Below, in pieces: positions 821-54,880 of a DNA stretch of 64,000 bases (its first letter is position 1; every line of letters starts with the position of its first letter). The notes under the pieces were generated by a model. The model saw nothing but the letters and a program-made list of their open reading frames with translations. It did no database searches and had not been told where the DNA came from. Source of the stretch: a virus (taxonomy: Duplodnaviria > Caudoviricetes); IMG/VR virus record IMGVR_UViG_3300032233_002382, positions 64,001-128,000 of that record; one strand, written 5' to 3'. A program made the translations under genes and the position numbers.

Positions 821-910
821 TGGCAGAGGGTGAGAGATTCGAACTCTCGAAACGGTTTCCCGTTTACACGCGTTCCAGGCGTGCTCCTTCAGCCGCTCGG
901 ACAACCCTCT
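821..910 (-). tRNA. tRNA-Ser(GGA), CCA encoded
   Basis: AGAGGGT/ACCCTCT acceptor stem, CACGC-CT GGA AC-GCGTG anticodon arm, long variable arm, GAGAG-TTCGAAT-CTCTC T-arm, G-CCA end. Confidence 0.95.
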
Positions 911-953
911 GCAAGACTAGGTTTTCAAAGATTCAGTAGTTCTACTTTACACT

Positions 954-1039
954 TGGTGCCTAAGGACGGACTCGAACCGTCACGACGTTGCCGTCGGGAG
1001 ATTTTGAGTCTCCTGTGTCTACCGTTCCACCACTCAGGC
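954..1039 (-). tRNA. tRNA-Leu(CAA), CCA encoded
   Basis: GCCTGAG/CTTAGGC acceptor stem, GGAGA-CT CAA AA-TCTCC anticodon arm, GACGG-TTCGAGT-CCGTC T-arm, A-CCA end. Confidence 0.95.
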
Positions 1040-4482: not shown

Positions 4483-5583
4483 ATGCTGACTGGCATCGTT
4501 GAGATCCCGAACGACACGTACATGGACGTCCTGCGATTCAATATCCGCACGGGCGGCAATATGCTCGCCTTCGGCCAGGCCGGTATCGGCAAGACCGAGA
4601 TGGCCCAGCAGGCGGCGGTTAATGAGGGATTCGGGGTCTGCTACCTGAACCTCTCCGTCCTCGAGGCCCCCGATCTTCTTGGCCTCCCCCTCATCACCGA
4701 CGACAAGAGCGTGGATTACGCCCGACCGCGCTTCCTCCCGATCGAGGGGAAGGTCGACAAGCCGGTGGTCCTGCTCGTGGATGAGCTGGATAAGGCCAAG
4801 CCCGAGCTTCAGAATCCCCTCCTCGAGCTGTTCCAGAGCCACTCGCTCAACGGCACCAAGCTGGCGATCCAGGCCATCATCGCCACGGGTAACCTCCCCG
4901 ACGAGGGTGCCCACTCGCAGCCGGTCTCCCATGCCCTCACGAACCGGTGCAAGGTCTACAAGCTGGTGAGCGCCTTCGAGCCTTGGCGTCAGTGGGCGCA
5001 GGATTCGAATCTGAACGCATTCATCATCGGCTTCCTGAGCAAGAATCAGGAGTTCCTGAGCCGTCCTCCGGTCGAGGGTGACCCCACGGCTTACTGCCGA
5101 CCCTCTCCTCGCGCGTGGTCCCAGGCTGCCCGTGAGCTGGACCAGACCACCACCAAGGATACGGTCGACTTCCAGACCCTCCTCGTCGCTGGTCGGGTGG
5201 GTAGTGAGGCCGCAGCCAAGTTCCGCGTCTGGCTGGAGCACTACCGCATCCTCGAGCCCATCATCGATCGTCTGGTGGCGGAGGGTACCCTGCCGAATAT
5301 GGGGGAGATGACCATCGACCGCCAGCTGGTCTGCGCGATTGGTGCTGCAAGCGCGGTGGCCCAGGAGTGCCGCAAGGACGTGAAGGATAAGGCGAAGCAT
5401 CAGGAGGCCGTGAACAAGACGGCTAAGAATGTCTTCACCTGGCTCCAGAAGCTCCCCTCCGAGTTCCAGATTGCCGCAGTGAAGAGCACTCTGAACATGG
5501 AGATCATCACGAAGTACCAGCTGACGAAGATCCCTGAGGTCATGAACACCTACCTCAGCGTCCGGAAGGCCATGAAGGACTAG
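4483..5583 (+). CDS. MoxR-like AAA+ ATPase (AAA_5 type)
   Basis: Walker A GQAGIGKT, Walker B LLVDELDKA, IIATGN sensor, RxxPSPRAW; GAGGAG RBS; strongly GC3-biased codons. Confidence 0.85.
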   Translation: MLTGIVEIPNDTYMDVLRFNIRTGGNMLAFGQAGIGKTEMAQQAAVNEGFGVCYLNLSVLEAPDLLGLPLITDDKSVDYARPRFLPIEGKVDKPVVLLVDELDKAKPELQNPLLELFQSHSLNGTKLAIQAIIATGNLPDEGAHSQPVSHALTNRCKVYKLVSAFEPWRQWAQDSNLNAFIIGFLSKNQEFLSRPPVEGDPTAYCRPSPRAWSQAARELDQTTTKDTVDFQTLLVAGRVGSEAAAKFRVWLEHYRILEPIIDRLVAEGTLPNMGEMTIDRQLVCAIGAASAVAQECRKDVKDKAKHQEAVNKTAKNVFTWLQKLPSEFQIAAVKSTLNMEIITKYQLTKIPEVMNTYLSVRKAMKD

Positions 5584-48913: not shown

Positions 48914-49570
48914 ATGTCACTCGTGCTCGCTTCACCCCTACCTAAAGGCGCTGAATACCTCGCCGATATTGCGGCGAAAGTCGCCCCTCAGGGCGGTGTT
49001 TCTCCGTATCTACTTCTCGGCATTCTTTATGCTGAATCAAATTTCGGCATGGCGCTTAAGCCGACCGGTCCATCTGGATCTGGCGACTTCATAGCCCGCC
49101 CCACTTCTCCAGATCGCGACAAGAGAATGGCTTCTAATCCGCTCCCTGGCGTGGTTAAGAAGACTCTGGCTGAGGGTATTAAAGCCCGTAAAATTGCTGG
49201 CCCCTGTGAAGCCTGGGTTCCCACCACCAACGGCTGGGGATGCGGCTTATTCCAAATCGATTATGAGGCCCACTACGAATTTTGCAAGTCTGGACAGTGG
49301 ACTGACCCCGAGAAGGCTTGTGCGTACGCGGTTGGAATTCTCAAGTCAGCTAGATCTTCACTCGTCAAATTAGTGCCTGGTATATCGGGCGTAAACCTGG
49401 ACCGCGCCATGATCGCCAGCTATAACGCTGGTGCTGGTCGTGTTTCGAAATTCCTGAAGGAGGGAAAGTCTCTCGATGACTGCACTTTCCACCCAGGGTA
49501 CGTCGACAAGATCTGCAATAAAGCCGACGCTCTTGCCGGTCATTCAGGTTCCTGGATGACTGTGGGGTAA
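48914..49570 (+). CDS. Lytic transglycosylase / lysozyme-like (SLT fold)
   Basis: ILYAESNFG catalytic Glu, GLFQID, ASYNAGAGRV; GGAGGT RBS. Confidence 0.8.
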   Translation: MSLVLASPLPKGAEYLADIAAKVAPQGGVSPYLLLGILYAESNFGMALKPTGPSGSGDFIARPTSPDRDKRMASNPLPGVVKKTLAEGIKARKIAGPCEAWVPTTNGWGCGLFQIDYEAHYEFCKSGQWTDPEKACAYAVGILKSARSSLVKLVPGISGVNLDRAMIASYNAGAGRVSKFLKEGKSLDDCTFHPGYVDKICNKADALAGHSGSWMTVG

Positions 49571-49603: not shown

Positions 49604-51964
49604 ATGCGTAAACATATTTTTAGTATAACTATTTCTTTTCTCCTCTTGGCTCCGGTGGTTAGTCCTGCACTAGACTCCGATTCGGATGGTCTAGATGACG
49701 CCGACGAAGTTTTAGCAGGACTACCACCGCTGGTTAGGGATTCTGATGCAGATGGTATGTGGGACGTATCAGATGATGATATGGATGGAGACGGGATACC
49801 CAATCTATCAGAGTGCAGCCTTGGCGCTACTACAGTCGTTTCTTTGGTAAATGGAAGCTTTGAATTACCAACATTTTCCGGCACAAACTTATTTTTCCCT
49901 ACTGAAGCTAATATGCCGGGATGGAAGTCTACAGCTCCGGACCACACCTTCGAGCTGTGGCCTAACGGAAATTTCAGTGGGTTTAACGCCTTAGACGGGC
50001 GAGTGTTTGTCGAACTGAATGCGAATTACGTTTCAACTCTATACCAAGACGTGCCCACCACACCGGGAAACAGATTTCTTTATTCGTTCGCCCATTCAGG
50101 ACGCCAGGGTACGGACACTATGGACTTCTTGCTGGGGACCCCAGGAGGCTCACTAGTCCAGCAGAGACGCTGCATAACTCCGGCCCGCACCTGGACTAGG
50201 TACAGCGGCGTTGTTCAGATTCCTGCAGGCCAAACCACCACCAGATTTGCATTTGCAAGCATCTCTTCCTCTTGTGGATCTTCATGTGGAAATTTCTTGG
50301 ATGCCATTAATTTTCGTCCCGCTTGTTTTTCTGATTTCGATCAAGACGGAATCCCAGACGCTCTAGACACTGACTCCGACAACGATGGTCTATCTGACCG
50401 CGTTGAGGGGATGTCGTTTTTCCGAATTGCCGACCGAGACGATGATGGGTGGCTAGACGGAAGCGATAACTGCCCATCTATATCAAACCCTAACCAAGCT
50501 GATTTAGATAGAGACGGTATTGGCGACCTATGTGACAATGATGACGACGGCGACGAGATCGCTGACAATATCGACAACTGTCCGCTTTACAGCAACTTTG
50601 ACCAATTAAACACCGACCATGATTTCTTCGGTGATGTTTGTGATGGTGATGATGATGGAGATTCCATAAGCGACGTAGTTGATAATTGTCCTCTGCATTA
50701 TAACGTAGCGCAAGAAGATCTAGACGGAGATTCAATAGGCGACATATGTGACCTAGACGATGATGGTGATGGGGCTAACGATGATGCGGACAATTGTCCT
50801 TGCCTGGCTAATCCTAGCCAGGCGAATCTAGATAACGATTCTGAAGGAGATGCTTGTGATAGCGATGACGACGGAGACATGGTACCGGATGATGTTGACA
50901 ACTGCTCAAGAATCGCTAATGCTGATCAGTCCGACATGGACCATGATTTAGTCGGTGACATGTGCGATAGTGATCTTGATGGAGATGGGCTTGGAAATGA
51001 TCTAGATAACTGTCCGAACATATCCAACGGCGATCAACGAAACATTGACGATGATGCATTTGGAGACTCATGCGACTTAGATAAAGATAATGACAGCATC
51101 TCAAATTCAGAAGACAACTGTGATGTCATACACAACCCACTACAGTCTGATATGGATCTAGACGGTATCGGCGATGAGTGTGACTCCGACGTTGACGGAG
51201 ATGAAATATCGAATCTAACGGACAACTGCCCCTTGCTTCGGAACGGAACTCAGTTTGACCAAGATCTCGATGGAATAGGAGACATCTGCGATCCGGATGT
51301 GGACGGAGATTCAGTTGTCGATGGTATCGACAACTGCCCTGGGGTGACAAACGCTAGTCAGAATGATACAGACTCAGACGGAATTGGAGATGCTTGCGAT
51401 GTAGATGCTGACGGCGACGGGATAGCGGACAATCATGATAACTGCACAGGGCTATCGAACGCTGACCAGACTGATACCGACACTGACGGGATTGGTGATA
51501 TGTGCGACCCCGACGCAGATGGCGACGGCGTTCCGAATATCGAGGAAGAGAAGATCGGGACAAATCCGCTTGTAGTCGATACTGATGGTGACGGGTATTC
51601 AGATGCCGAAGAAGCAAAGCAAGGTAGTAGTCCCACGGACCCTGGCCAAGTCCCACCGGGAATCTATTCAGGTGGGTGTTCTTCCTCTGGTCCCGTATCA
51701 ACTGGGTCGACTACGTTCGGGTCTAATGCTCCGAACGATCGATCATCCAGTGCTTTTTATGCCTTAGCTTTTATCCCACTCTTTATGCGTCGCAAGCGGA
51801 ACTTTTTCCTTGCTTTGTTGCTTGTTTCTTCGGTCGCTTCGGCAGACCAAGGTGTCCAAGTCTCCGTTCCGCGTGAATTAGAACTATCTTTGACTTCACC
51901 GGAGATAGGATCGGAATTCGTTACTGTGCCTTCCAGTCAATTTAAGGACGGCACCCATTTTTGA
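49604..51964 (+). CDS. Secreted surface protein: signal peptide, galactose-binding-like domain, thrombospondin type-3 repeats, MYXO-CTERM-like segment
   Basis: N-terminal signal peptide; NGSFE...PGW...ELNA domain; ~11 DNCP..xN.xQ.D.D.DG.GD.CD repeats; GGCS...hydrophobic helix-RRKR. Confidence 0.85.
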   Translation: MRKHIFSITISFLLLAPVVSPALDSDSDGLDDADEVLAGLPPLVRDSDADGMWDVSDDDMDGDGIPNLSECSLGATTVVSLVNGSFELPTFSGTNLFFPTEANMPGWKSTAPDHTFELWPNGNFSGFNALDGRVFVELNANYVSTLYQDVPTTPGNRFLYSFAHSGRQGTDTMDFLLGTPGGSLVQQRRCITPARTWTRYSGVVQIPAGQTTTRFAFASISSSCGSSCGNFLDAINFRPACFSDFDQDGIPDALDTDSDNDGLSDRVEGMSFFRIADRDDDGWLDGSDNCPSISNPNQADLDRDGIGDLCDNDDDGDEIADNIDNCPLYSNFDQLNTDHDFFGDVCDGDDDGDSISDVVDNCPLHYNVAQEDLDGDSIGDICDLDDDGDGANDDADNCPCLANPSQANLDNDSEGDACDSDDDGDMVPDDVDNCSRIANADQSDMDHDLVGDMCDSDLDGDGLGNDLDNCPNISNGDQRNIDDDAFGDSCDLDKDNDSISNSEDNCDVIHNPLQSDMDLDGIGDECDSDVDGDEISNLTDNCPLLRNGTQFDQDLDGIGDICDPDVDGDSVVDGIDNCPGVTNASQNDTDSDGIGDACDVDADGDGIADNHDNCTGLSNADQTDTDTDGIGDMCDPDADGDGVPNIEEEKIGTNPLVVDTDGDGYSDAEEAKQGSSPTDPGQVPPGIYSGGCSSSGPVSTGSTTFGSNAPNDRSSSAFYALAFIPLFMRRKRNFFLALLLVSSVASADQGVQVSVPRELELSLTSPEIGSEFVTVPSSQFKDGTHF

Positions 51965-53094
51965 TTGCCCCGCTGTTCTCGGTCGATCTATTAAGATGGA
52001 CTGGGCAGCGGGGCGAATCGCTAAATTTGATCCCAAATCTACTAAGTTCGAGCGCTGCTTTCGCTTACGCAGGGAAGTACTGGTTTGTGGGGTTGACCTC
52101 TGAACTAATTACGAGATTAGGCTCGGAGCGCATCGGTGGATTTCAGATCTTAAAACCAGAGGCGTTCGCAGGTGCTCAATTCCGAATCAAATTCCTATCT
52201 GCAAGTGTTCGGGCTGTAACGAATATTCCGATTTCCTATAATAGCTATTTCAACTCGAGCCAGTCTTTAAACGCGATTCTCGCTCTCGGTTTTAAAATCG
52301 ATAAGTTCGATGCTTCATTATCTTCTTCTTACGGCACTAGTGGATTACGCCTAAAGTCAGGCGTTAAGTATAGCTTGTTCGATTGGTTGGGGTTTTCGAT
52401 CGAATCAGATTTAAGCCACCAGATCGGAACGTATTCAGTGTTTCGACTCGGTAATAGATTTTCTGCTATCGCCGGAGTTGCATTCGCTGTAAAGAGCGGA
52501 CCCGGAATTCCTCGATTCGACTCCGTTTTAGGGGTTCGACTTGTACCACCCGATCCTGTGGATAGCCCGGCCGTGGTCGTTGAACGGCCACACCCAGTTG
52601 TTGTGTTGCCATTAGACCCAAAATCGGATCCAGAATCGATCGATTCGACTGCGATAGTCACACCCGTAATCCAGCCTGACGTAACCAGCGATCCCGACCT
52701 AGGCGCAAGCCCGTTGCCGGTTTTAAGTCCAGATCCTTCACCCGAGATCGTTTCGGAAGCGCCGTCTGAAATAAAACCGGTAGTTTCTAACGATATCAAG
52801 CTTCCTACAGTCGAACAGAAGAAGGTCGTATTCGATAAAACCGAGTTAAAGCAATTTGAGCTCATCGAAAAATGGCAGTACTTTCTGAAAGGTCACCCCG
52901 AGATCGAGTTAGTGAGCATTAATTTCGTCGGTGGAAAGATGAGTATGAATGAGGGCTACAACCGAATTAAAAAAGTCAAGGAATTTTTGATTTCTTCCGG
53001 TGTCGAGAAAGAAAGGATACGCCTCGGAAAAATGATTAAATTTTCGGGTGATCCGTACATAAGAATCGACATCATAAGAATCCGGGGTGAATAA
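51961..53094 (+). CDS. Outer-membrane beta-barrel-like region + Pro-rich linker + degenerate OmpA-like domain
   Basis: Alternating aromatic/hydrophobic strands; D/P-rich linker; R...V.EFL...GV..ERI; -1 frame relative to the upstream gene. Confidence 0.6.
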   Translation: MIAPLFSVDLLRWTGQRGESLNLIPNLLSSSAAFAYAGKYWFVGLTSELITRLGSERIGGFQILKPEAFAGAQFRIKFLSASVRAVTNIPISYNSYFNSSQSLNAILALGFKIDKFDASLSSSYGTSGLRLKSGVKYSLFDWLGFSIESDLSHQIGTYSVFRLGNRFSAIAGVAFAVKSGPGIPRFDSVLGVRLVPPDPVDSPAVVVERPHPVVVLPLDPKSDPESIDSTAIVTPVIQPDVTSDPDLGASPLPVLSPDPSPEIVSEAPSEIKPVVSNDIKLPTVEQKKVVFDKTELKQFELIEKWQYFLKGHPEIELVSINFVGGKMSMNEGYNRIKKVKEFLISSGVEKERIRLGKMIKFSGDPYIRIDIIRIRGE

Positions 53095-53831
53095 TGGAGG
53101 ATAATCGGCCCGTATGCGACATTACGCTAAATAAGGATGGATCGATACCATTCGAATCTATCGCTAACTTAGATCCTAACTGTCGAGTGCCTAAGGCTGT
53201 TAAGAATGTAATCATACCTATGGAAGGAGAGCGAGATTCTGTGAAGAATAAAAAACATACGGAGATAAAGACCACCGAAGAAGTTACCTTAAACCAGGAG
53301 GAAGTTCCAATGGCCCAGACCGAATCAGTAAAATCAGTAGACACCCAGGTTTCTGAAGCCCCCGCAACCGTAGCTACGGTAGGTGTCGACCAAGCTGTAA
53401 GTCAGGTAAAATCTCTTATACCGGCAGGGTCAGACGCCAGTCCGGCTTTGATGATTGGCGGGGCAGCGATTCTAGCAGTCGTGGGTGCTGCGATAAAATT
53501 TGGCCCGTCGATGCTAAAAGCTCGGGCTGAAAAGGCCGAAAGAGAACACGAAGCCAAGATGAAACAGCTCGAGATCGAAGAGAAGAAGAGCGAAAAACAG
53601 GAAGACCAGCACCAACAGTGCAATGCATCAAGGCTCGCTCTTGAAGCTAAGGTGGGTGCTCTCGCTTCTCAAGTCGAATCACTATCTGGCAAAGTGGAAA
53701 AATCAGGGTCCTCTTCGTTAAGTTTAGGAGATATGGACTCTGAAGAGCTAGTGGAAAAACTCGAAAAGCATGATAAAGCGATCAAAGCCCTCGATAAGAA
53801 TGTGAAGGCGTTAAAGAAAATATTAGGGTAG
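53094..53831 (+). CDS. Single-TM coiled-coil protein (strong internal start at 53310)
   Basis: AGGAGG before Met 53310; TM segment LMIGGAAILAVVGAAIKFG; coiled coil. Confidence 0.7.
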   Translation: MEDNRPVCDITLNKDGSIPFESIANLDPNCRVPKAVKNVIIPMEGERDSVKNKKHTEIKTTEEVTLNQEEVPMAQTESVKSVDTQVSEAPATVATVGVDQAVSQVKSLIPAGSDASPALMIGGAAILAVVGAAIKFGPSMLKARAEKAEREHEAKMKQLEIEEKKSEKQEDQHQQCNASRLALEAKVGALASQVESLSGKVEKSGSSSLSLGDMDSEELVEKLEKHDKAIKALDKNVKALKKILG

Positions 53832-53860
53832 TCAGACGGTTAATGGTGAGGAGGAATAAG

Positions 53861-54880
53861 ATGAAAACTAACAAACTGCTCCTCCTCACCATTGGTCTAA
53901 TGCTGTTGATAATCGGAATTCAACATAAACAGCTCCAAGATGCGAATAGTAAACTGACCAAAGTAATCGATCAAAAAGACATTGGCGGTGGGATAGTTCG
54001 GTCTTCCACGTCTGTAGGCACTAGCGCCGACATAGATTCGATGGCCTTGGATGCAGGCGTCGATATTTCTCGAATTCGTTCAGATGCCACCGACAACGGA
54101 GCAGTCGTTACTGGTATAAACGTTACGACCGCCAATACGTCTGGTTCCAACTCGACCAACGTTCGAAGCAGCCGCTCTAAGCCTCGAACGGATGTCGCCC
54201 AGCCGAATTTCGGATCGTGTGTTTGTCCTCCAAATCAAGGCTCAAGCTCGGATATAAAGATCCCACCACCTACGGCTCCCGCTTGTGCACCCGGAAGGTA
54301 CGAAAATTCGGAGCAGGTGTTGGATATTAACGAGCCTGTAACGGACCAAAATATCCCATTCGGGGAAGTCACTTTTAAGGCTTGGAAAGAGGATCCGTGG
54401 AGTCTATCAGTGTTCCCCCGAAGCTATAAATCATCCGTGGTATTTGCAGAGGATGATGATGGAAGAAAAATCGCATATTCGCACATGGAGATCATACAAG
54501 GAGATAATAAAGTCACCTTGCCGATTTCAACGGCCGAAATGGTCATGACCCCGAAACCAGCTAAGTTTAGGTGGGCGAGTCGACTTCATCTAGGGGTATC
54601 GGGAGGTATCCACACCACCCTTGGAATTACTGGTAATGCTGGTCTAGCATTTTACTTTGCTAATTACGGTTCAGACAAATTCCTGCCTGATTTCACTTTC
54701 ATCGGCGCTGGACTCGGATACGACTTCTTAAACTCATCTCCGGTCATATCATTAAACCCCGCATCCTATAGGATTGGTCAGCACTTACCCTTCGTACAGG
54801 ATTTATACTTGTCGCCACAATTGACGCTAGATCTGTCATTGAAGGTCGGTTTGCTAGTTTCGATATCGACTGCTTTATGA
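53861..54880 (+). CDS. Signal-anchored envelope protein, unknown function
   Basis: GAGGAGG RBS; N-terminal hydrophobic segment; C-terminal amphipathic beta-strands. Confidence 0.65.
   Translation: MKTNKLLLLTIGLMLLIIGIQHKQLQDANSKLTKVIDQKDIGGGIVRSSTSVGTSADIDSMALDAGVDISRIRSDATDNGAVVTGINVTTANTSGSNSTNVRSSRSKPRTDVAQPNFGSCVCPPNQGSSSDIKIPPPTAPACAPGRYENSEQVLDINEPVTDQNIPFGEVTFKAWKEDPWSLSVFPRSYKSSVVFAEDDDGRKIAYSHMEIIQGDNKVTLPISTAEMVMTPKPAKFRWASRLHLGVSGGIHTTLGITGNAGLAFYFANYGSDKFLPDFTFIGAGLGYDFLNSSPVISLNPASYRIGQHLPFVQDLYLSPQLTLDLSLKVGLLVSISTAL

What the first reader, a model, noticed from the sequence alone, without database searches (positions are those of the whole stretch)
49604..53094. Phage-encoded myxobacterial-type surface adhesin plus barrel/OmpA-like partner
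Seen: signal peptide, sugar-binding-like domain, TSP3 repeats, then GGCS...TM-RRKR, followed at once by a second signal-peptide-like stretch (FFLALLLVSSVASA|DQ) and, in the next frame, beta-barrel-like strands, a Pro linker and an OmpA-like tail. Known: GGC-TM-basic is the MYXO-CTERM sorting signal; the kin-recognition pair TraA (MYXO-CTERM adhesin) and TraB (barrel, TSP3, OmpA) drives outer-membrane exchange in myxobacteria. The domain order here differs, so it is not a direct ortholog. Inference: the phage decorates infected cells with an adhesion or recognition module that could promote cell-to-cell spread or exclude other phages. It also points to the host phylum.
Basis: partly seen in the sequence, partly recalled or inferred. 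Interest (0 to 1): 0.72.

Follow-up and report, generated by a model that had tools for sequence, protein, structure and literature searches.

The report
Frameshift-joined phage adhesin and membrane anchor
A giant freshwater phage carries one gene, read partly through a programmed backward slip of the ribosome, that joins a myxobacteria-type surface adhesin (still bearing its sorting tag) to an outer-membrane barrel with a cell-wall-anchor-like tail. The design is known from Myxococcus, but the phage copy and its recoding signal are new.

Summary
The two ORFs (49604-51964 and 51961-53094) are one gene, not an adhesin plus a separate partner. The frame change at CAT-TTT-TGA is real. The same -1 break recurs in five other independent contigs or strains. 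Each keeps a U-run, a zero-frame stop 0-1 codon later, a 5-nt spacer and an invariant GC-rich hairpin. Relatives with an unbroken ~1140-1170-aa ORF lack both the U-run/stop and the hairpin. The shifted product (1163 aa) aligns colinearly with them. ORF2 has no conserved start codon and no signal peptide of its own.

Domain order: signal peptide, DUF642-like jelly roll, TSP3 stalk, SGGC tag, short TM, RRKR, second hydrophobic segment ending AxA, 10-strand barrel, Pro-rich linker, degenerate OmpA-like domain. The barrel is homologous to TraB-like barrels of Myxococcota (hhalign 98%).

This fused design is already described for M. xanthus MXAN_5598 (PMC11980579). This scan had already noted unbroken phage versions on other DNA. 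The conserved -1 frameshift signal is the new element. Processing, surface display and the host are inferred, not shown. The window's own tag fails the MYXO-CTERM HMM.

The parts
49604..51964 (+). Zero-frame reading of the gene (786 aa plus TGA). It covers the adhesin, the sorting tag, the helical hairpin and a 39-aa tail.
   Evidence: It is 73% identical to the L002 homologue.
49604..49669 (+). N-terminal signal peptide, predicted cut after SPA at residue 22.
   Evidence: Hydropathy peak over residues 4-23. Conserved in all relatives.
49811..50329 (+). DUF642-like jelly-roll domain, about residues 70-242. Probably the binding tip.
   Evidence: 102 homologues, including tip domains of LPXTG, T9SS, PEP-CTERM and isopeptide-pilus proteins. 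Atlas structure TM 0.82-0.89; the DUF642 feature hits score 0.84-0.85, under the tool's 0.9 mark, so they are a lead only. No direct Pfam hit.
50330..51643 (+). Thrombospondin type 3 (TSP3) calcium-binding repeat stalk, about residues 243-680. 29% Asp, 21 Cys.
   Evidence: Pfam PF02412 E 6.7e-89 in 11 stretches; PF18884. Composition.
51668..51679 (+). SGGC signature of the Cys-type sorting tag. Cys692 codon is at 51677-51679.
   Evidence: SGGC is invariant in the eight family proteins aligned and is also seen in L005 and L007. The window copy gives no HMM hit. Relatives hit TIGR03382 and Synerg-CTERM above cut-off.
51749..51844 (+). Helical hairpin: short TM1 (716-728), RRKR (729-732), then a second hydrophobic segment ending ASA (733-747). 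Predicted signal-peptidase site between 51844 and 51845.
   Evidence: Hydropathy. The R-rich cluster and A-x-A followed by D/E/Q are conserved in 11 of 11 family members.
51956..51964 (+). Slip site CAT TTT TGA. U-run at 51958-51962, zero-frame stop at 51962-51964.
   Evidence: The same CC[AG]-UUUU motif occurs in L002, L007, L005 and L009. There is no indel in an independent strain contig.
51967..52014 (+). Stimulatory RNA hairpin, GCCCCGCUG...CAGCGGGGC, starting 5 nt after the UUU codon.
   Evidence: MFE -41.4 kcal/mol, z -5.2. The ten basal pairs are invariant in the four aligned contigs, with one C>U keeping a G-U pair. Site-unbroken relatives show no comparable structure.
51961..53094 (+). 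-1 frame continuation (377 codons plus stop), reached only by frameshifting. The full product is 1163 aa.
   Evidence: The -1 frame is open only from 51944. The fusion is colinear with unbroken relatives. Purifying selection is seen in this frame.
52078..52545 (+). Ten-strand outer-membrane beta-barrel (ORF2 residues about 40-195), homologous to TraB-like barrels.
   Evidence: Model pLDDT 65-88. KdgM Z 12.2, NanC 10.9, FapF 11.9. hhalign against the Myxococcota profile gives 98.0%, E 1.7e-13.
52546..52848 (+). Disordered Pro-rich periplasmic linker.
   Evidence: pLDDT below 50. 20% Pro.
52849..53091 (+). Degenerate OmpA-C-like alpha/beta domain lacking the GHTD loop.
   Evidence: pLDDT about 90. 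OmpA-C, Pal and MotB at Z 8.7-9.6. A PDB profile search puts OmpA (5wtp) top at E 0.001. The Pfam OmpA model gives no hit.
48914..49570 (+). SLT-type lytic transglycosylase gene immediately upstream. Syntenic in the relative L002 at 88% identity.
53094..53831 (+). Downstream 245-aa protein with a mid-protein TM segment and a coiled-coil tail. It is conserved directly downstream in L002 (67% identity) and L003 (29%, E 3e-11). L004 has a protein of similar layout.
53843..54880 (+). 345-aa protein with an N-terminal signal anchor and a strand-rich C-terminal end. Syntenic in L002 at 48% identity.

Best explanation
The stretch 49604-53094 is a single phage gene for a two-module envelope precursor. 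Part of its translation depends on a programmed -1 ribosomal frameshift.

**The frameshift.**
- Shown by comparison: ribosomes reach the Phe codon UUU (51959-61), which sits within a U-run.
- It is followed by the zero-frame stop UGA and, 5 nt later, by a stable GC-rich hairpin (51967-52014).
- Inferred: a fraction of ribosomes slips back one base and continues into the 377-codon -1 frame, giving a 1163-aa protein. The rest terminate, giving a 786-aa protein.

**Processing (inferred from the architecture and from work on MYXO-CTERM).**
- The N-terminal signal peptide exports the DUF642-like tip and the TSP3 stalk.
- The short TM1 stops transfer, and RRKR stays in the cytoplasm.
- The second hydrophobic segment re-starts export and is cut after ASA by signal peptidase.
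- The adhesin, held by a Cys-type sorting tag, would then be lipidated and cleaved by a host myxosortase-type protease. The type II secretion system would carry it to the cell surface.
- The released C-terminal module would be inserted as an outer-membrane barrel whose OmpA-like tail reaches the cell wall.

**Consequence.** The frameshift would set an adhesin-to-anchor ratio above the 1:1 that unbroken relatives must make. The net effect is that an infected cell, probably of Myxococcota or a relative, displays a phage-specified adhesion module of the TraA/TraB or MXAN_5598 type.
For: **The break is real and recurrent.**
- The same -1 break occurs in L002, L007, L005 and L009.
- A contig from a 2015 freshwater run spans the site at 94% identity, with 57 substitutions and no indel.

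**The signal is conserved.**
- All carry CC[AG]-UUUU, a stop 0-1 codon later, an exact 5-nt spacer and a hairpin. Its ten basal pairs are invariant in the four aligned contigs, and L009 carries the same arms.
- Synonymous sites between the window and L002 are otherwise saturated.

**Controls.** Five relatives unbroken at this site lack the U-run/stop. Their fold z-scores are +0.3 to +1.25 in four and -1.4 in one, against -1.5 to -6.7 for the broken forms.

**The fusion is the real protein.**
- The frameshift fusion aligns colinearly with unbroken ORFs of 1137-1167 aa. P0005 matches the ORF2 profile at E 3.9e-9.
- L002, L007, L005 and L009 have no ATG, GTG or TTG at the junction. ORF2 has no signal peptide although it encodes a barrel.
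- The -1 frame is under selection. dN/dS is 0.21 for L007 against L009. In the close strain, 18 of the 30 listed substitutions in the ORF2 frame are synonymous.

**Architecture.**
- SGGC, the R-cluster and AxA are conserved in 11 of 11 members.
- Tags of relatives pass TIGR03382 (19.1 bits against a cut-off of 15.85) and Synerg-CTERM (27 against 22.5).
- The barrel is homologous to Myxococcota TraB-like barrels.
- Fused cellular ORFs with an internal GGGCGC tag, then AxA, then a barrel were found in Myxococcota genomes, three of them checked at the junction.
- MXAN_5598 is described with this design, and its N-terminal part is proposed to be processed (PMC11980579).
Against: - No expression, protein or frameshift-efficiency data exist. 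No RNA run was listed.
- The window's own tag is not recognised by any sorting-signal HMM. It has a 23-residue polar spacer between the Cys and a short, Pro-containing TM1, so it may be a poor or dead substrate.
- The P-site codon (CAU or CGU) would re-pair badly after a two-tRNA slip, so the slip mechanism is non-canonical.
- Hairpin covariation is nearly nil, because the stem is invariant.
- No CPBP/myxosortase gene is present in the phage record, which is 72% complete. The host is unknown.
- Phage GC is 46%, against my recollection (not a tool result) of a much higher GC in cultured myxobacteria.
- The OmpA-like domain lacks the GHTD loop that carries peptidoglycan-binding residues.
Confidence: 0.68

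Rival explanations
1. The frame break is an assembly or homopolymer error, or the gene is a decaying pseudogene.
For: The break sits in a T5 run. One extra T would restore a single ORF.
Against: - Six independent instances exist, including T4 runs with different following codons.
- An independently assembled strain contig has 57 substitutions and no indel.
- The hairpin is conserved at saturated synonymous sites.
- The -1 frame is under purifying selection.
Confidence: 0.03
2. ORF1 and ORF2 are two separate genes, and ORF2 starts on its own (TTG at 51961, or re-initiation after the stop).
For: - The window has TTG at the junction, overlapping the stop.
- traA and traB are overlapping separate ORFs in M. 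xanthus (PMC11980579).
Against: - L002 (TTA), L007 (TCA), L009 (TCG) and L005 (TAC) have no start codon there, although the coding sequence is conserved from that point.
- ORF2 would lack any signal peptide, yet it encodes an outer-membrane barrel.
- Unbroken relatives read straight through.
Confidence: 0.05
3. The two frames are joined at the nucleic-acid level, not by the ribosome. RNA polymerase would stutter on the T-run, or the run would vary in length in the DNA (phase variation), switching the anchor on and off.
For: The shift lies in a homopolymer. An added U would give the same protein.
Against: - Runs of only 4-5 T are shorter than the known transcriptional slippage sites I recall (own knowledge: typically 8 or more).
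- No length variant was seen in the contigs of four runs.
- The invariant hairpin at a fixed 5-nt distance fits a ribosomal stimulator.
Confidence: 0.07
4. The protein is not a surface-display module. One version: the precursor stays uncut and tethers inner and outer membrane, as a spanin-like or envelope-remodelling role beside the SLT enzyme. Another version: it blocks receptors for superinfection exclusion.
For: - The gene sits between an SLT lytic transglycosylase and a TM plus coiled-coil protein. This order is conserved in L002 and partly in L003 and L004.
- The window's tag has a long spacer and gives no HMM hit.
- The OmpA-like domain is degenerate.
Against: - A-x-A after the second hydrophobic segment is conserved in 11 of 11 members, which argues for cleavage.
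- A tip domain of about 690 aa plus a Ca-binding stalk is typical of adhesins.
- The module is homologous to the TraB-like/MXAN_5598 design.
Confidence: 0.15

Closest known systems
MXAN_5598 of Myxococcus xanthus (internal MYXO-CTERM adhesin fused to an OM barrel and OmpA domain; Guo, Haft & Wall, mBio 2025, PMC11980579)
   Same: - Same order: signal peptide, large adhesin, Cys-containing tag with TM and Arg cluster, second signal-like segment ending AxA, outer-membrane barrel, OmpA-type end.
- The phage barrel profile is homologous to the barrels of three fused Myxococcota ORFs and five stand-alone TraB-like proteins aligned together.
- Those fused cellular ORFs, of 2815-3091 aa and of this design, are shown. 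I did not verify that they are MXAN_5598 orthologues.
   Different: - The phage protein is about 1160 aa, not about 3000.
- The adhesin is a DUF642-like tip on a TSP3 stalk.
- TSP3 repeats lie in the adhesin, not between barrel and OmpA. A Pro-rich linker takes that place.
- The OmpA domain lacks the GHTD loop.
- The tag is SGGC rather than GCGC and fails the HMM in this copy.
- The gene is phage-borne and, in this lineage, is split by a -1 frameshift signal.
TraA/TraB outer-membrane-exchange pair of M. xanthus (PMC3325183, PMC12045341)
   Same: A surface receptor with a MYXO-CTERM-type tag, plus a partner made of an OM barrel and an OmpA-like domain, encoded next to each other. The cellular proteins used for the barrel profile score best against the NCBIfam TraB model.
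   Different: - There is no PA14-like variable domain and no Cys-rich TraA stalk.
- It is one gene, not two.
- The cellular relatives score 227-267 bits against a TraB cut-off of 700, so they are TraB-like paralogues only.
- Phage ORF2 itself gives no TraB hit.
Programmed -1 frameshifts of bacteria and phages (lambda G/GT tail chaperone, dnaX, T7 gene 10; 'shifty stops'), from my own knowledge
   Same: A slippery run, a short spacer and a downstream stem-loop. Two products share an N-terminus at a set ratio. In the window and L002, a stop codon immediately follows the slip codon.
   Different: - The motif CC[AG]-UUUU is not a canonical X XXY YYZ heptamer.
- The gene is an exported envelope protein, not a virion or replication protein.
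- The extension adds a complete membrane-anchor module.
Phage-encoded outer-membrane proteins such as lambda Lom and Bor (own knowledge)
   Same: A phage gene product is inserted into the host outer membrane and changes the cell surface.
   Different: Lom is a small stand-alone 8-strand barrel. It has no adhesin, no sorting tag and no recoding.

Membership tests
MYXO-CTERM / Cys-type tripartite sorting signal (TIGR03901, TIGR03382; related Synerg-CTERM TIGR04564) | The HMM match reaches the curated cut-off. | tested here: not met
   The window tag gives no MYXO-CTERM hit at E<=10. Only Synerg-CTERM (E 0.38) and CGP-CTERM (E 0.74) appear, below cut-off. Relatives do better: P0004 scores 19.1 on TIGR03382 (cut-off 15.85) and P0003 scores 27 on Synerg-CTERM (cut-off 22.5). 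P0005 and P0003 score 18.1-18.6 on TIGR03901, under the cut-off of 20.
MYXO-CTERM / Cys-type tripartite sorting signal | An invariant Cys in a short signature, then a TM helix, then an Arg-rich cluster. | tested here: inconclusive
   SGGC and RRKR are present and conserved family-wide. In the window, however, 23 polar residues separate the Cys from a 13-residue TM that contains Pro. Haft notes that MYXO-CTERM TM segments lack Pro.
MYXO-CTERM / Cys-type tripartite sorting signal | Located close to the C-terminus. | tested here: not met
   The tag is internal in every family member. It is followed by 54 aa in the zero-frame product and 431 aa in the shifted product. This matches the atypical case of MXAN_5598.
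MYXO-CTERM / Cys-type tripartite sorting signal | A cognate myxosortase (CPBP protease) is present in the same cell. | not testable with these tools
   The host is unknown. No PF02517 match was found in the 72%-complete phage record.
MXAN_5598-type / TraB-like barrel-OmpA module of Myxococcota | The barrel is homologous to the Myxococcota family. | tested here: met
   hhalign of A5 against A8 gives probability 98.0%, E 1.7e-13, over 199 columns. The cellular members' best NCBIfam hit is TraB.
MXAN_5598-type / TraB-like barrel-OmpA module of Myxococcota | Domain order: adhesin, internal tag, signal-like segment with AxA, barrel, OmpA. | tested here: met
   for the phage. for cellular ORFs. for the published description.
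MXAN_5598-type / TraB-like barrel-OmpA module of Myxococcota | TSP3 repeats between barrel and OmpA, and a canonical OmpA domain with GHTD...NxxLSxxRA. | tested here: not met
   A Pro-rich linker takes the place of the TSP3 repeats. The profile alignment to OmpA shows a 6-residue deletion at the HTD loop, while N-R of the helix is kept. Pfam OmpA gives no hit.
MtsC (NCBIfam NF047638, equivalog) | A full-length match to the 428-position model, including both ends. | tested here: not met
   The whole protein scores 493 bits (cut-off 350), but in 5 stretches over the TSP3 part of the model. The first 299 aa score only 30 bits, on TSP3-like residues. The tag region gives no MtsC hit. The score is therefore repeat-driven.
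Programmed -1 ribosomal frameshift site | A slippery run that allows re-pairing in the -1 frame, a fixed short spacer, and a stable downstream structure, all conserved across homologues. | tested here: met
   U-run of 4-5, 5-nt spacer and a hairpin whose 10 basal pairs are invariant in the four aligned contigs; L009 carries the same arms and the X2 strain has no indel. Five site-unbroken relatives lack the U-run/stop and show no comparable structure.
Programmed -1 ribosomal frameshift site | The shifted protein is actually made, at measurable efficiency. | not testable with these tools
   No RNA or protein data exist. This needs a reporter assay or proteomics.

The most novel reading that the evidence does not exclude
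The phage uses a recoding-tuned, TraAB-like contact module to make infected cells adhere to neighbouring host cells, or even exchange outer membrane with them. That would hand progeny phage, or phage receptors, directly to new hosts within myxobacterial-type swarms. The frameshift would set how many free adhesins there are per wall-anchored complex.
Probability: 0.1. Interest if true: 0.88.

Novelty: new variant of a known kind. Interest (0 to 1): 0.64.

Why it matters
**For recoding.** This is a clean, comparatively validated -1 frameshift signal outside the usual phage tail-chaperone and replication genes. It has natural "unbroken" relatives that serve as built-in controls.

**For envelope biology.** A so-called C-terminal sorting tag can be kept mid-protein, welded through its Arg cluster to the next module's signal peptide. 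One precursor can then yield a surface adhesin and its outer-membrane anchor. Giant freshwater phages have taken this design from Myxococcota.

**For host assignment.** It gives a testable host clue for an uncultured 300-kb-plus phage. It also offers a compact model substrate, about 1160 aa against about 3000 aa, for studying myxosortase-type sorting of internal tags.

Tried and rejected
- **Complex prediction.** I tested the last TSP3 repeats up to the Cys (residues 560-692) against the barrel (ORF2 residues 1-200). The tool's verdict was "no answer", score 0.01. This is not evidence either way.
- **RNA evidence.** No RNA holder was listed among the sequencing runs.
- **Viral-contig scans.** Scans with ORF2, with the C-terminal domain profile and with two DNA patterns found nothing beyond the (excluded) own genome.
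- **Profile too divergent.** A5 was too divergent for pattern-based locus search.
- **First model.** The first ORF2 model, from a 2-row alignment, was too poor to use (pLDDT 39.5).
- **No family hits.** Pfam and NCBIfam give no family for ORF2, the N-domain or the C-terminal domain. A PDB sequence search with the N-domain found nothing.
- **Tree.** The N-domain tree does not resolve whether the frameshift-bearing lineages form one clade.
- **Promoters and terminators.** The scan found fewer sites than in shuffles.
- **Own genome.** No second tagged or TSP3 protein and no CPBP protease was found in the phage record.
- **MtsC.** Rejected as repeat-driven.
- **Independent gene at MRRKR.** Rejected as the start of a separate gene, because L002 has FF-RKKR with no Met.

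Full report
**Setting.** The window is bases 64001-128000 of a 307,777-bp IMG/VR virus record estimated 72% complete. Overall GC is 46%. The flanks carry tail-fibre, endolysin, clamp-loader and HNH genes. The finding covers two adjacent ORFs on the + strand: 49604-51964 (786 aa) and 51961-53094 (377 aa, in the -1 frame).

**Checking the observation.**
- ORF1 has an N-terminal hydrophobic signal-like segment.
- A jelly-roll domain spans about residues 70-242. Its homologues sit at the tips of sorted surface proteins of many phyla. Its predicted structure matches those tips at TM 0.82-0.89. The feature hits to DUF642 clusters (0.84-0.85) are a lead only.
- The TSP3 array is very strong (PF02412, E 6.7e-89).
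- The end of ORF1 reads SGGC, then 23 polar residues, then a 13-residue hydrophobic stretch, then RRKR, then a second hydrophobic stretch ending ASA|DQ, then 39 more residues to a TGA.
- With a 16-row alignment the ORF2 model improves to mean pLDDT 66. It shows ten strands (pLDDT 65-88), a disordered 20%-Pro linker and a C-terminal alpha/beta domain at pLDDT about 90.
- The strands match outer-membrane barrels (KdgM Z 12.2, FapF 11.9, NanC 10.9). The tail matches OmpA-C, Pal, MotB and YiaD domains (Z 8.7-9.6, rmsd 2.2-2.8 A).
- AlphaFold DB cluster hits are mostly barrel-plus-OmpA proteins.
- A profile of the tail finds OmpA-family chains first in the PDB (5wtp, E 0.001). The alignment shows a six-residue deletion where OmpA has its HTD loop. 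Pfam's OmpA model does not hit.

**One gene, not two.** The -1 frame is open only from 51944, 18 nt before ORF1's stop. One more T in the T5 run would fuse the frames.
- A related phage contig, L002, has the same cassette: SLT, adhesin, ORF2, then a 243-aa and a 348-aa gene. ORF1 is 73% identical and ORF2 49%.
- L002 has the same break, CAT TTT TAA. It has no ATG, GTG or TTG between the preceding -1-frame stop and conserved coding sequence.
- L002 also has FF-RKKR where the window has FM-RRKR. The second hydrophobic stretch is therefore not the start of a separate gene.
- A search with the N-domain found full-length relatives of 1137-1167 aa in a single ORF (P0004, P0005, P0007, P0008).
- The window and L002 proteins, joined by a -1 shift after Phe786, align colinearly with those relatives across the junction and to the C-terminus.
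- A profile of ORF2 matches residues 782-1129 of P0005.

**The frameshift signal.**
- Three more contigs carry the break: L007 (CAT TTT CAC TAG), L009 (CAT TTT CGC TAG) and L005 (CGT TTT ACC TAG).
- In all five contigs the motif is CC[AG]-UUUU, with a zero-frame stop 0-1 codon later. Exactly 5 nt after the UUU codon comes a hairpin, GCCCCGYUG...CAGCGGGGC.
- In the four aligned contigs its ten basal pairs are invariant apart from one C>U that keeps a G-U pair. L009 carries the same arms.
- In the window the fold is -41.4 kcal/mol, z -5.2.
- These contigs range from 46% to 66% GC. Synonymous sites between the window and L002 are saturated. The invariance of the stem therefore points to selection on the RNA.
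- Five relatives unbroken at this position have neither a U-run with a stop nor comparable structure. Their z-scores are +0.3 to +1.25 in four and -1.4 in one. The broken forms score -1.5 to -6.7.
- Contigs of a 2015 freshwater run cover the whole 1-kb stretch at 94% identity with 57 substitutions and no indel. The T5 run is therefore not an assembly error.
- Of the 30 listed substitutions in the ORF2 frame, 18 are synonymous. L007 against L009 gives dN/dS 0.21 over ORF2.
- ORF2 encodes a barrel but has no signal peptide. It can reach the envelope only as a continuation of ORF1.

I conclude that this is a programmed -1 ribosomal frameshift.
- Open point: the slip may be by a single tRNA-Phe in the P site, next to the stop. 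It may instead occur with UUU in the A site, which the 5-nt spacing fits.
- The upstream codon would re-pair poorly in a two-tRNA slip.
- An AAGGA lies 9 nt upstream and may add a Shine-Dalgarno-like stimulus, but it overlaps conserved codons.

**The internal tag and hairpin.** All eleven family members keep three features: SGGC, an Arg-rich cluster, and a second hydrophobic segment ending A-x-A followed by D, E or Q.
- Cut at the Arg cluster, tags of relatives pass Cys-type sorting-signal models. P0004 scores 19.1 on TIGR03382 (cut-off 15.85). P0003 scores 27 on Synerg-CTERM (cut-off 22.5). Others fall just under cut-off.
- The window's tag does not pass. It and the other three frameshift-type copies whose tag region is held (L002, L007, L005) have a 22-28-residue spacer between the Cys and the TM. 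The unbroken ones have 8-12.
- The topology is self-consistent: export, stop-transfer, cytoplasmic Arg loop, re-export, then a signal-peptidase site.

**Relation to Myxococcota.**
- The C-terminal domain motif found nine cellular loci, all Myxococcota OmpA-family proteins.
- One, in an Archangium MAG, is a giant ORF. It has a canonical GGGCGCG tag, TM and RRRERR, then a signal-like segment ending ARA|Q, then a barrel, TSP3 repeats and OmpA.
- Equivalent fused ORFs of 3009 and 2815 aa occur in two further genomes, each on the first-numbered, multi-megabase contig of its assembly.
- In a Myxococcales MAG, a 389-aa protein ending in a canonical MYXO-CTERM lies immediately upstream of a separate barrel-TSP3-OmpA gene.
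- The barrel family occurs in 202 of 301 sampled Myxococcota genomes. Its best NCBIfam hit is TraB, below the cut-off.
- The phage C-module profile is homologous to it (hhalign 98.0%, E 1.7e-13, 199 columns).
- The fused design is already published. Guo, Haft and Wall describe MXAN_5598 as a large adhesin with an internal MYXO-CTERM, followed by an OM barrel and an OmpA domain. They liken it to TraA plus TraB and propose that the N-terminal part is processed and surface-anchored.
- TraB is SP, barrel, TSP3 and OmpA, and works 1:1 with TraA.
- No paper in the library links MYXO-CTERM proteins to phages.

**Earlier notes of this scan.** The scan had already noted unbroken fused versions in other phage genomes, and the T5 shift in this one. 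I tested the shift independently.

**Mechanism and limits.**
- What comparison shows: a single recoded gene, its signal, its domain order and its ancestry.
- What is inferred: signal-peptidase cleavage, Cys lipidation and myxosortase cleavage by a host enzyme, surface display through the type II system, barrel insertion, and the role of the frameshift in setting an adhesin excess.
- Points against: the HMM-negative long-spacer tag, the degenerate OmpA domain, no sorting protease in the phage record, the unknown host and the 46% GC.
- The contigs that carry the family look phage-like and span 36-66% GC. Several host lineages are therefore likely.
- The function at the level of infection (adhesion, exchange, exclusion, or an envelope role beside the conserved SLT and TM/coiled-coil neighbours) remains open.

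Noticed in passing
L034:4300-5337 (P0006) and P0003: Two relatives read through the frameshift position unbroken but stop inside the barrel. In L034 the end of the barrel (the GVPKAQ motif) continues in the +1 frame (4620-5270), followed by a different C-terminal domain. This is a second, different break: either another recoding site or decay.
   Followed up: partly
window 51680-51748; L002, L007, L005 equivalents: The four frameshift-type copies whose tag region is held have a 22-28-residue polar insert between the tag Cys and TM1. L009 is cut off upstream of it. Unbroken copies have 8-12 residues. The two traits co-occur, but the tree cannot say whether this is shared descent.
   Followed up: partly
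window 53094-53831 and 53843-54880: The 245-aa protein has a cytoplasmic head, one TM segment, a conserved Cys and a coiled-coil tail. It lies directly downstream in L002 and L003, and L004 has a look-alike. The 345-aa protein has a signal anchor and a strand-rich C-terminus that may be another outer-membrane protein. Both may belong to the same envelope cassette.
   Followed up: partly
L010:5591-6760 and window 48914-49570: In a Myxococcales MAG, the MYXO-CTERM protein just upstream of the TraB-like gene carries what looks by eye like a lysozyme/SLT-like domain. I ran no domain search that confirms this. The phage has a stand-alone SLT gene just upstream of its adhesin. This may be a parallel, and it is untested.
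   Followed up: no
window 51944-51948: An AAGGA lies 9 nt upstream of the U-run. GAGGA and GGGGAG lie at similar positions in L002 and L005. This could be a Shine-Dalgarno-like frameshift enhancer as in dnaX, but it overlaps the conserved (D/E)DG codons.
   Followed up: no
window 49604-51964: The NCBIfam equivalog model for MtsC (NF047638) scores 493 bits, above its cut-off of 350, purely through stacked TSP3 repeats. An automatic annotation would mislabel this protein.
   Followed up: yes
L004:9419-10420: The contig carrying the unbroken relative P0004 encodes a 333-aa adenylosuccinate-synthetase-family protein. An earlier scan note reports PurZ in the window's own genome.
   Followed up: no
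window 821-1039: Two tRNA genes on the minus strand: Ser-GGA and Leu-CAA.
   Followed up: no
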